From an uncultured Oscillospiraceae bacterium (GTDB taxonomy: Bacteria; Bacillota; Clostridia; Oscillospirales; Oscillospiraceae), in assembly GCA_934597255.1 (NCBI GenBank), contig CAKTQV010000005.1, positions 55,712 through 119,711 of the forward strand: a stretch of 64,000 nucleotides of DNA. The letters run 5' to 3'. Positions 31,012 through 32,052 of the stretch are shown here, piece by piece (positions within the stretch are counted from its first letter, which is position 1; the number at the start of each line of letters is the position of its first letter). A model generated the notes under the pieces. The model was given only the letters and a program-made list of their open reading frames with translations, ran no database searches and was not told the DNA's origin. The position numbers and the translations under genes were made by a program.

Positions 31012-31107
31012 TCCCGCCTCCTGTCCGCGAAGTTTATCTGTGCAGGCAGGGGTAACGTTGCTCTGACTGGCAGTATGCCTATGATGCGAACGGCAGCCTG
31101 ACGGGTA

Positions 31108-32052
31108 TTGGGCGGAACAGCTGGACAGATGCCAAATACACCGGGTGCTCCGCTTACCATGCCTTACGGCGGCGCCGGGGCCGGAGCGGTCTGGCCGCCC
31201 ATTGCCGAGCTCAATCCCCTCCGCTACCGCGGCTATTATTACGACGCTGAAACGGGATTCTATTACCTCCAAAGCCGCTATTATGATTCCAAGATCGGCC
31301 GGTTTATCAACGCAGACAGCCAACTCGACACGGCCATATCCAGCGGCCTGAACCTGTTCTCCTATTGCGAAAATAATCCGGTGAACATGGTTGATACTAC
31401 AGGGCAATTACCGTTTTTTCTTATAACTGCAGCTATCGGTGCAGTGGTTGGAGCTGTTATCGGTGGTGTGGTTGCCGCTAAAAATGGCGGTAATGTTTGG
31501 TCAGGAATCGGAATTGGCGCAGTCGCAGGCGCGCTAATAGGCACGGGCGCAGGTATGGCGGCAGGTGCTGCATTGGCTGGTAGTATAACAGCAACAACGG
31601 GGGCTGTTATGGCTGGTGGAAGCACTTTGGTAGCAACTATTGGCACAGGCGGCCTTGGTGCAGGGGCAACATATATTGCAAAAAACTTGTCTCAAGCTGC
31701 CAATAATTTGGCCGGCGCAGCTCAAACTGCAGCAGACAAAATGCAAGAAGTTGCAGCCAAAGGAAAAGCCGGAGAAGCATTGTCAGGAATAGCCAAAAAC
31801 ACAACTCGTATTCCATCTATGACAGGAACAGCTTCTTATCGGATCCCAGACGGACTTGATGACGGTATGAGAATTTTAAGCGAAGTAAAGAATTACGCGG
31901 GTACTTTGTCGTACACAAATCAACTTAAGGATTTCGTGATGTGGTCACAAGCTAAAGGATTCCAAATGCACCTCTATACAAATGCTACGTTAACTGGTCC
32001 ATTGCAGCAGATTGTTGACAATGGCATAATTCAGTTATTCTCATTAGGATGA
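31108..32052 (+). CDS. Orphan RHS/YD-repeat core C-terminal tip fused to a polymorphic toxin C-terminal module: glycine-zipper membrane segment plus PD-(D/E)xK nuclease-like domain. The 5' side is truncated and frame-broken (31056..31107 encodes a YD repeat in another frame).
   Basis: [36 protein letters not shown]...[20 protein letters not shown] is the conserved RHS core end. In a different frame just upstream: QYAYDANGSLTGIGRN (YD repeat). An 80-aa Gly/Ala-rich GxxxG tract follows. C-terminal [19 protein letters not shown] carries a PD...ExK motif. The core part is GC-rich, the toxin part AT-rich. Confidence 0.65.
   Translation: [314 protein letters not shown]

What the first reader, a model, noticed from the sequence alone, without database searches (positions are those of the whole stretch)
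31056..32052. Orphan RHS core tip with a GC-rich core and AT-rich toxin; upstream YD repeat is out of frame
Frame 0 mod 3 encodes QYAYDANGSLTGIGRN (a YD repeat) immediately after a TAA at 31053. It then drifts into nonsense, while frame 1 mod 3 encodes the canonical RHS core end [36 protein letters not shown]...[19 protein letters not shown]. This is followed by an ~80-aa GxxxG glycine-zipper tract and a ~100-aa domain with PD...ExK ([19 protein letters not shown]). The core-coding part (31030-31400) has host-like GC while the toxin part is AT-rich. This is the classic signature of a displaced rhs tip captured by recombination with a resident rhs core. The module lacks any N-terminal delivery region, so it is a reservoir/orphan rather than a deliverable toxin.
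Basis: partly seen in the sequence, partly recalled or inferred. Interest (0 to 1): 0.75.

Follow-up and report, generated by a model that had tools for sequence, protein, structure and literature searches.

The report
Orphan Rhs nuclease-toxin tip with immunity gene
This is the cut-off tail end of a large bacterial "Rhs" contact-weapon gene (a DNA-cutting toxin plus its antidote gene), stranded without the part needed to deliver it, inside a strain-variable island of antidote genes in a gut Clostridia bacterium; it is a well-known kind of element.

Summary
A TAA at 31053-31055 is followed by one start-less YD repeat in frame 0 (31056-31142). Frame 1 then encodes an Rhs core end (TIGR03696, 76 bits), a 93-aa glycine-zipper segment and a Tox-REase-7 nuclease domain (PF15649, E 1.9e-15) with all family motifs intact. 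A HEAT-repeat gene (32064-32738) follows, and this pairing recurs in at least 8 other loci. Full-length relatives (L004, 2205 aa; P0241, 2196 aa) carry the same tip behind a Sec signal and about 1,900 aa of YD shell, so the window copy is a 5'-truncated orphan.

It lies in an 8-kb, 42%-GC island in a 65%-GC Clostridia genome, with no rhs gene elsewhere in the 64 kb. Sister strains carry other cassettes at the same site. Their orphans hold up to about 580 bp of 65%-GC core, and homology to the window starts abruptly at 31143. Three other island genes are orphan immunity genes, and a scar of a deleted toxin remains.

Most likely this is a silent toxin cassette kept with an active immunity gene. 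Whether the genome has a main rhs to recombine with could not be tested. It is a new member of a known kind; the most interesting detail is the glycine-zipper module shared by at least five toxin types.

The parts
31056..31142 (+). Single YD repeat remnant (WQYAYDANGSLTGIGRNSWTDAKYT). It is in a different frame from the tip ORF, has no start codon and directly follows TAA 31053-31055.
   Evidence: Searches give the sequence. It fits the YD-repeat consensus of full-length relatives such as YTYDENGNITAIKKNGETVESYT. It is the only YD regex hit in the 64 kb. It has no DNA homology to the sister-strain orphans, whose identity begins at 31143.
31143..31407 (+). 3' end of the Rhs core (RHS-associated core domain, ...[11 protein letters not shown]...[12 protein letters not shown]). 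This is the only stretch available for recombination with a full-length rhs gene.
   Evidence: TIGR03696 scores 76.4 bits, E 1.8e-21. It is 98-99% identical to the orphans in L002 and L003 from exactly 31143. GC3 is 0.65, against 0.31 in the next segment.
31408..31686 (+). Glycine-zipper, predicted membrane-helical pre-toxin module of 93 aa ([20 protein letters not shown]...).
   Evidence: It has 8 GxxxG motifs and 25% Gly. Pfam Gly-zipper hits are only sub-threshold. The same module, 58-70% identical, precedes at least 4 other unrelated C-terminal domains in L012/L010/L015, L014, L018/L016 and L017. AlphaFold predicts helices with low confidence.
31687..32052 (+). Linker plus Tox-REase-7 (PD-(D/E)xK) nuclease toxin domain. 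The Pfam match covers 31762-31986 and the stop codon is 32050-32052.
31108..32052 (+). Whole open frame of the orphan: 314 aa from TTG, 307 aa from ATG 31129, or 297 aa from ATG 31159. None of these starts has a convincing ribosome-binding site.
   Evidence: the 297-aa call is P0002; the 307-aa call is P0380. No promoter-like site was found upstream. The start-site context was read.
32064..32738 (+). Cognate immunity gene (Imm-HEAT, 224 aa), with a GGAGAG ribosome-binding site 6 nt upstream.
   Evidence: PF13646 HEAT_2 scores 34.6 bits against a cut-off of 27.7. It lies directly downstream of the same toxin in L002, L003, L004, L005, L006, L007, L008 and L011. The Imm-HEAT/Tox-REase-7 pairing is in PMC3482391.
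28450..36600 (+). AT-rich (42% GC) island of small same-strand genes that holds the module, lying between def (27833-28273, -) and an Spx/ArsC-family gene plus tRNA-Leu(CAA). It contains orphan immunity genes at 28990-29526, 32775-33326 and 36033-36461.
   Evidence: Composition; tRNA. Homologues of the three genes sit -30 to +18 nt after Rhs toxin ORFs elsewhere. Strain-to-strain cassette replacement is seen in L003 and L084.

Best explanation
This is an orphan rhs-CT/immunity module. It comprises the last 88 codons of an Rhs core, a glycine-zipper pre-toxin segment, a Tox-REase-7 nuclease domain and the cognate HEAT-repeat immunity gene. The upstream ~1,900 codons (Sec signal, YD shell) that full-length relatives use to export and encapsulate the toxin are missing.

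Shown:
- The truncation, the intact toxin and immunity reading frames, and the conserved toxin-immunity pairing.
- The location in a horizontally acquired, strain-variable island that otherwise holds mostly immunity genes without toxins.
- The abrupt homology junction at 31142/31143, which leaves one YD repeat out of frame.

Inferred:
- The toxin fragment is not translated, or at least cannot be delivered, because it has no export signal, shell, convincing start site or promoter.
- The HEAT gene is expressed and protects the cell against neighbours that deploy the full-length version of this toxin.
- The 265-bp core remnant could allow homologous recombination with a full-length rhs gene elsewhere in the genome. 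That would swap this tip onto a deliverable protein, as shown for Salmonella orphans.

In a full-length protein, the tip would be released by Rhs C-terminal autoproteolysis near DTTGQ|LPFF. The glycine zipper would then insert in the target membrane to carry the nuclease into the cytoplasm, where it cleaves nucleic acid.
For: - Domain hits.
- Full-length relatives: L004 and P0241 have the same tip behind a Sec signal peptide.
- Orphans are common in this clade. About 29 of 80 loci are short ORFs closed upstream, and 24 of 83 loci carry two or more core ends in tandem.
- All invariant catalytic positions are retained.
- The predicted structure has the nuclease fold.
- The HEAT gene is syntenic in at least 8 loci.
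- Sister-strain orphans at the same chromosomal site (L003, L084), and in L002, carry 335-580 bp more of a 65%-GC core. That core is identical between copies.
- The island holds orphan immunity genes and a toxin scar.
- The junction is reproduced in independent assemblies.
- Literature: orphan activation by recombination (PMC3967940); Tox-REase-7/Imm-HEAT (PMC3482391); glycine-zipper-dependent translocation of a DNase effector (PMC10240207).
Against: - No main rhs gene lies in the 64-kb window.
- No full-length Rhs with this species' GC-rich core turned up in protein or metagenome searches. Those searches are lossy or collapse close relatives, so this is weak evidence.
- Only 265 bp of core homology remain here, against about 580 bp in sister strains. 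That lowers the chance of productive recombination.
- The ORF is fully intact and has in-frame ATGs, so some standalone expression cannot be excluded.
- No expression or activity data exist.
Confidence: 0.78

Rival explanations
1. Immunity island with a decaying relic. Selection acts only on the immunity genes (HEAT and the other orphan immunity genes), which protect against Rhs toxins fired by neighbouring Clostridia. On this view the toxin fragment is a pseudogene on its way to deletion and will never be reused.
For: - At least three island genes are immunity genes whose toxins are gone.
- A 17-aa scar of another toxin survives at 35686-35736.
- The 5' end of this tip has been rearranged and frameshifted.
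- No main rhs was found.
Against: - The 297-aa frame has no stop codon or frameshift, and every invariant catalytic residue is kept.
- The fragment is nearly unchanged in other strains: 12 codon differences in 303 against L002, 6 synonymous and 6 not.
- The core end is kept at 98-99% identity.
Confidence: 0.3
2. Standalone small toxin. The 297-307-aa product is translated from ATG 31129 or 31159 and acts on its own, for example as a toxin-antitoxin-like addiction module that stabilises the island, or by leaving the cell through another route.
For: - The ORF is intact and has in-frame ATGs. Gene callers annotate it as a protein in several assemblies.
- Many homologues of 220-300 aa occur on long contigs, for example P0087 on 128 contigs.
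- The glycine-zipper segment might insert into membranes unaided.
Against: - There is no Shine-Dalgarno sequence before either ATG, whereas the HEAT gene has GGAGAG.
- No promoter-like site lies upstream.
- There is no signal peptide.
- The conserved Met that starts many of the short calls is part of the core motif NNPVNM, so those 'starts' are probably gene-caller artefacts.
- The same tip sits on 2,200-aa proteins.
Confidence: 0.1
3. Assembly or sequencing artefact. The frameshift and truncation are errors, and the tip really belongs to an intact long rhs gene.
For: Repeated core fragments are known to break or mis-join metagenome assemblies. The genome appears to be a MAG.
Against: - The identical junction occurs in an independent assembly (L001, 99.9% over 13 kb) and in P0380 from other samples.
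- An upstream gene (DUF6560, 30484-31011) and a TAA stop lie immediately 5' of the fragment.
- The flanks are collinear with L003 and L084.
Confidence: 0.02

Closest known systems
Orphan rhs-CT/rhsI modules of Enterobacteria (Salmonella Typhimurium LT2 rhs-orphan; Koskiniemi et al. 2014, PMC3967940)
   Same: It is a fragment holding the 3' end of the core plus a toxin tip. It lacks translation-initiation and export signals, is linked to its own immunity gene, and shows a compositional break at the core/tip junction.
   Different: - It is not located downstream of a main rhs gene; none lies within 64 kb.
- The host is a Gram-positive-type Clostridia bacterium whose full-length relatives are Sec-exported, not T6SS cargo.
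- Only 265 bp of core remain, preceded by an out-of-frame YD repeat.
- Activation by recombination has not been shown.
WapA-type Sec-dependent Rhs/YD toxins of Bacillota (B. subtilis WapA; from my own knowledge, plus PMC12704120 title and abstract)
   Same: The full-length relatives (L004, P0241, L012 and others) have an N-terminal signal peptide, a long YD-repeat region, an Rhs core end, a polymorphic C-terminal toxin and an adjacent immunity gene.
   Different: The window copy has none of the N-terminal 1,900 aa. The tip carries a glycine-zipper module and a Tox-REase-7 nuclease rather than a WapA tRNase.
Tox-REase-7 / Imm-HEAT toxin-immunity pair (Zhang et al. 2012, PMC3482391)
   Same: The Pfam match is above threshold, all four family motifs are present, a HEAT-repeat gene lies next door, and the toxin is associated with RHS repeats.
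   Different: No member of this family appears to have a solved structure (no PDB sequence hit). Activity has not been tested here.
Glycine-zipper N-terminal segment of the T6SS DNase Tde1 (Ali et al. 2023, PMC10240207)
   Same: Consecutive GxxxG motifs lie immediately N-terminal to a nuclease toxin domain. In Tde1 they permeabilise the target cytoplasmic membrane and are needed for translocation.
   Different: There is no sequence relationship. Here the segment is 93 aa, follows an Rhs cleavage site, and is a shared module in front of at least five different toxin domains. Its function here is inferred only.
Polyimmunity loci / acquired interbacterial defence gene clusters (Zhang 2012; Bacteroidales AID systems, from my own knowledge)
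   Same: The island is a cluster of immunity genes without cognate toxins. It is horizontally acquired and varies between strains.
   Different: No recombinase or mobile-element gene was seen in the island. One intact toxin tip is retained.

Membership tests
Full-length, deliverable Rhs/YD polymorphic toxin | Long YD-repeat shell (hundreds of residues, many repeats) | tested here: not met
   Only one YD repeat is present, out of frame, at 31056-31142. The regex hits once in six frames of the 64 kb. Relatives have about 1,900 aa upstream.
Full-length, deliverable Rhs/YD polymorphic toxin | N-terminal trafficking signal (Sec signal, PAAR and the like) | tested here: not met
   The ORF opens 35 codons before the core end and has no signal peptide. 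L004 and P0241 have MKK...hydrophobic signal peptides.
Full-length, deliverable Rhs/YD polymorphic toxin | RHS-associated core end followed by a variable C-terminal toxin | tested here: met
   TIGR03696 scores 76.4 bits. PF15649 lies downstream.
Orphan rhs-CT/immunity module | 5'-truncated core fragment plus toxin tip, lacking initiation and export signals | tested here: met
   Homology to longer orphans begins at 31143.
Orphan rhs-CT/immunity module | Linked cognate immunity gene | tested here: met
   The HEAT gene at 32064-32738 is syntenic with the toxin in at least 8 loci.
Orphan rhs-CT/immunity module | Lies downstream of a main rhs gene in the same locus | tested here: not met
   No other core end or YD repeat occurs in the window. 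The left flank is def and small AT-rich genes.
Orphan rhs-CT/immunity module | A main rhs elsewhere in the genome shares the core sequence, so recombination can activate the tip | not testable with these tools
   Only 64 kb of the genome is available. Searches for a full-length protein with this core found none, but they were lossy.
Tox-REase-7 (PF15649) | Profile match above the gathering score | tested here: met
   57.3 bits against 25, covering profile positions 1-76 of 84.
Tox-REase-7 (PF15649) | Conserved motifs GxxxE, IxD, ExK, Q (Zhang 2012) | tested here: met
   G219-K-A-G-E223, I246-P-D248, E259-V-K261 and Q272/Q281 are invariant or nearly invariant in 34 sequences.
Tox-REase-7 (PF15649) | Restriction-endonuclease (PD-(D/E)xK) fold | tested here: met
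Tox-REase-7 (PF15649) | Nuclease activity and toxicity | not testable with these tools
   This needs an experiment.
Imm-HEAT immunity protein | HEAT repeats; encoded directly after a Tox-REase-7 toxin | tested here: met
   PF13646 scores 34.6 bits against 27.7. Adjacency is conserved. The pairing is listed in PMC3482391.
Imm-HEAT immunity protein | Binds and neutralises the toxin | not testable with these tools
   This needs an experiment.
Integron-like cassette array (considered) | Repeated hairpin recombination site after each cassette, plus an integrase | tested here: not met
   No repeat family occurs within 28300-36700. The hairpin/junction element occurs only once in the window, at 36529-36569. 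No integrase was found among the island ORFs.

The most novel reading that the evidence does not exclude
The 93-aa glycine-zipper segment between the Rhs cleavage site and the toxin may be a distinct, uncatalogued pre-toxin module. It would carry WapA-like Rhs toxins of gut Clostridia across the target cell's membrane, and it is reused in front of at least five unrelated toxin domains. In addition, this species may keep its Rhs tips in an rhs-less chromosomal cassette array with a fixed hairpin/junction boundary. That array would serve mainly as a strain-variable immunity bank.
Probability: 0.35. Interest if true: 0.5.

Novelty: new member of a known kind. Interest (0 to 1): 0.3.

Why it matters
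By itself this is a textbook orphan polymorphic-toxin cassette, and the Tox-REase-7/Imm-HEAT pair has been catalogued since 2012.

It matters modestly in three ways:
- It documents Rhs orphan and immunity cassette turnover in uncultured high-GC gut Clostridia. Three or four different cassette arrangements occupy one chromosomal site in sister strains.
- It shows that such a lineage keeps immunity genes, and one intact nuclease tip, without a nearby delivery gene.
- It points to a conserved glycine-zipper module that would be a tractable handle on an open question: how Sec-exported Rhs toxins of Gram-positive bacteria cross the target membrane.

Tried and rejected
- **Core-fragment protein search.** I queried with the GC-rich core fragment to find the species' main Rhs. 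The best hit was 55% identical and the search did not even return P0003, which contains the query. The result is uninformative.
- **Exhaustive representative search with P0003.** It found full-length Rhs proteins with the same architecture (P0241, 54% identity) but none close enough to be the same species. Clustering at 50% identity hides close relatives.
- **Two metagenome DNA scans.** The first found nothing. The second found only L084, another strain's version of the same island, and no main rhs.
- **PDB sequence search with the toxin domain.** No hits.
- **Cluster look-up to name the organism.** No names or accessions were returned. The host is known only as a roughly 65%-GC Clostridia MAG lineage whose relatives are Acutalibacteraceae, Oscillospiraceae and Eubacteriales.
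- **Integron-like array idea.** Rejected, because no repeated elements occur in the island.
- **Promoter and terminator scan.** Counts were about the same as in shuffled sequence and nothing lay upstream of the tip.
- **Programmed frameshift joining the YD repeat to the tip.** Rejected, because the frame-0 piece starts right after a stop codon and has no start codon.
- **Origin of the YD remnant.** I could not decide whether it is the orthologous last repeat of a divergent core or a repeat from about 165 codons further upstream. The 12-nt match GCC(A/G)AATACACC next to an 11-nt gap fits either.

Full report
**1. Observation**

- A TAA lies at 31053-31055.
- From 31056, frame 0 reads RCSDWQYAYDANGSLTGIGRNSWTDAKYTG and then runs into nonsense. 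It has no start codon.
- Frame 1 is open from 31108 to 32052. It reads ...[59 protein letters not shown]...[19 protein letters not shown].
- A 93-aa Gly/Ala-rich stretch follows (31408-31686), with 8 GxxxG motifs.
- A C-terminal domain containing RIPDG...SEVKNY ends the ORF.

Curated models confirm the parts.
- TIGR03696 (Rhs-associated core) scores 76.4 bits against a 32.5 cut-off.
- PF15649 (Tox-REase-7) scores 57.3 bits against 25, E 1.9e-15.
- The downstream gene at 32064-32738 matches HEAT_2 above threshold.

The arrangement is not chance or error.
- Strict regexes for a YD repeat and for the core end each hit once in all six frames of the 64 kb, next to each other.
- The junction is reproduced in an independent assembly (L001, 99.9% identical over 13 kb).
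- It also appears in protein P0380 from other samples.

Composition:

| Segment | GC | GC3 |
|---|---|---|
| Host flanks | 64.7% | – |
| Island 28450-36500 | 42% | – |
| YD remnant | 56% | – |
| Core end | 55% | 0.65 |
| Glycine zipper | – | 0.31 |
| Nuclease part | 41% | – |

It sits at the core/tip junction (31407/31408). 'Host-like' overstates the core's GC.

**2. What it is**

Full-length relatives exist.
- In L004 (an Acutalibacteraceae MAG) the same core end, glycine zipper and Tox-REase-7 tip (84% identical) ends a 2205-aa ORF. That ORF begins with a Sec-type signal peptide and carries RHS repeats. A HEAT gene follows it, and then a further orphan.
- P0241 (2196 aa) has the same layout.
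- The window copy is therefore the last roughly 300 codons of a 2,200-codon gene type.

Such fragments are common in this clade.
- Of 80 related loci, about 20 are full-length genes.
- About 29 are short ORFs closed by an upstream stop.
- 24 of 83 loci carry two to five core ends in tandem.

The toxin part looks functional.
- All Tox-REase-7 signature positions listed by Zhang et al. (GxxxE, IxD, ExK, Q; PMC3482391) are present.
- They are invariant across 34 homologues.
- AlphaFold models the last 85 residues at pLDDT 86-94 with a helix followed by alternating strands and helices, as expected for a PD-(D/E)xK nuclease core.
- Foldseek found nothing significant, and no PDB sequence relative exists.

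The HEAT gene follows the same toxin in L002-L008 and L011. This matches the published Imm-HEAT/Tox-REase-7 pairing.

**3. The locus**

The module sits in an 8-kb island of small same-strand genes. The island lies between def (27833-28273, minus strand) and an Spx/ArsC-family gene plus tRNA-Leu(CAA). No rhs gene lies anywhere in the window.

Sister strains of the same species carry different contents at the same site.
- **L003:** window 28969-31142 (three small genes plus the YD remnant) is replaced by 368 bp. Those 368 bp extend the orphan by 111 codons of YD shell (414-aa P0001).
- **L084:** window 30461-34146 is replaced by 3.7 kb holding other small genes and a 437-aa orphan with a different tip.
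- **L002:** three orphans lie in tandem. One is 98% identical to the window over 2.2 kb (31143-33388).

The orphans share a host-type core.
- The orphans in L002 and L084 share an identical roughly 580-bp core fragment of 64-67% GC, which is host composition.
- They have the same 5' boundary, just after a hairpin/junction element.
- The right half of that element also marks the right edge of the window's island (36529-36569).

In the window, identity to all of these begins abruptly at 31143, exactly at W|GAPLT.
- Immediately upstream, a 12-nt match (GCCAAATACACC against GCCGAATACACC) is followed by an 11-nt gap relative to the others.
- Beyond that, homology is lost.
- The YD remnant is thus a rearrangement scar left out of frame. 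It is not part of a translatable product.

The rest of the island is mostly immunity genes without toxins.
- Homologues of 28990-29526, 32775-33326 and 36033-36461 lie -30 to +18 nt after Rhs toxin ORFs in L031, L026, L078, L072, L029, L002 and L017.
- A 17-aa scar of another Rhs toxin survives at 35686-35736.
- A 53-aa stump at 30307-30468 is the start of a gene that is intact in L084.

**4. Mechanism**

Best-supported reading (confidence 0.78): a silent, non-deliverable toxin cassette retained with an expressed immunity gene.

Shown:
- The truncation.
- The intact toxin and immunity frames.
- The conserved toxin-immunity pairing.
- Cassette turnover between strains.

Inferred:
- **No translation or export of the toxin fragment.** There is no Shine-Dalgarno sequence before ATG 31129 or 31159, whereas the HEAT gene has GGAGAG. 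No promoter-like site lies upstream, and there is no signal peptide.
- **Protection by the HEAT protein** against neighbours that fire the full-length toxin.
- **Possible reactivation** by recombination between 31143-31407 and a main rhs, as shown in Salmonella (PMC3967940).

In the full-length context the tip would be released by Rhs autoproteolysis near DTTGQ|LPFF. The glycine zipper would then mediate membrane passage of the nuclease, by analogy with Tde1 (PMC10240207). The same zipper (58-70% identical) precedes at least four other C-terminal domains absent from Pfam. It therefore behaves as a shared pre-toxin module.

Rivals:
- A relic in an immunity island (0.3; overlaps the main reading).
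- A standalone expressed small toxin (0.1).
- An assembly artefact (0.02).

**5. Comparison and novelty**

It works like the orphan rhs-CT/rhsI modules of Enterobacteria, and its full-length relatives work like WapA-type Sec-exported Rhs toxins.
- **Met:** the orphan criteria of truncation and a linked immunity gene.
- **Not met:** location downstream of a main rhs.
- **Not testable:** whether a main rhs exists elsewhere in the genome.

It is a bona fide Tox-REase-7/Imm-HEAT pair by profile, motifs and predicted fold. Overall it is a new member of a known kind.

The modestly novel aspects are the rhs-less, strain-variable cassette and immunity array in an uncultured high-GC Clostridia lineage, and the uncatalogued glycine-zipper module.

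**6. Limits**

- Host identity is known only by its relatives. The cluster look-up gave no names.
- Searches for the species' main rhs were negative but not conclusive.
- No expression or activity data exist.

Interest 0.3.

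Noticed in passing
window 28990-29526, 32775-33326, 36033-36461: These three island genes have homologues that sit -30 to +18 nt after Rhs toxin ORFs in other genomes (L031, L026, L078, L072, L029, L002, L017). They are therefore immunity genes whose toxins are absent here. None matches a Pfam or NCBIfam family.
   Followed up: yes
window 35686-35736: A short frame encodes NFANRNSSVLKHTYN, 14 of 17 residues identical to the C-terminal part of the Rhs toxins in L075 (6655-6705) and L056. 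This looks like the scar of a deleted toxin tip.
   Followed up: partly
window 36529-36569; L002 1352-1384 and 4874-4906; L084 (reverse complement) 4607-4639 and 5614-5654: A conserved junction element (hairpin GCATCGCCTTTTG...CAAAAGGCGATGC followed by TTCCCCGTACATAGCTGAC) precedes every orphan core fragment in sister strains. Its right half marks the right edge of the window's island. Its role (terminator, recombination boundary) is unknown.
   Followed up: partly
window 30307-30468: This 53-aa ORF is the 5' stump of a 175-aa gene that is intact in sister strain L084. The cassette breakpoint is at 30460/30461.
   Followed up: yes
window 30484-31011: A DUF6560 membrane protein gene (PF20197, E 3.8e-11) lies immediately upstream of the orphan tip. 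It belongs to the 30461-34146 block that L084 replaces with other DNA. It may be another immunity protein.
   Followed up: no
L002 1405-1972 and 4927-5494; L084 (reverse complement) about 5655-6242: Orphan tips with different toxins carry an identical roughly 580-bp, 65%-GC Rhs core fragment with the same 5' boundary. This implies recent duplication or gene conversion, or a fixed cassette-capture mechanism.
   Followed up: partly
L012, L010, L015, L014, L018, L016, L017 (C-terminal 100-115 aa of the Rhs ORFs): At least four C-terminal toxin domains follow the same glycine-zipper module and have no Pfam match. One of them contains a ParB-like DGHHR motif.
   Followed up: partly
window 37187-37272 (-), 36651-37007 (+), 37371-37787 (-): tRNA-Leu(CAA), an Spx/ArsC-family gene (TIGR01617, 88.7 bits) and an Hsp20-like ORF flank the island on the right. 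The tRNA could be the integration target of the island.
   Followed up: no
window 26172-27026 (-): This NYN/OST-HTH-type protein has a tandem AEPKPEKKAEPARK(A/T) repeat in its middle. L003 differs from the window around this region: homology breaks at 26394-26573.
   Followed up: no
window 39496-41487 (-): This OYE/FadH-type Fe-S flavoenzyme has strong but sub-threshold matches to BaiCD (392 bits) and to long-form bilirubin reductase (325 bits).
   Followed up: no
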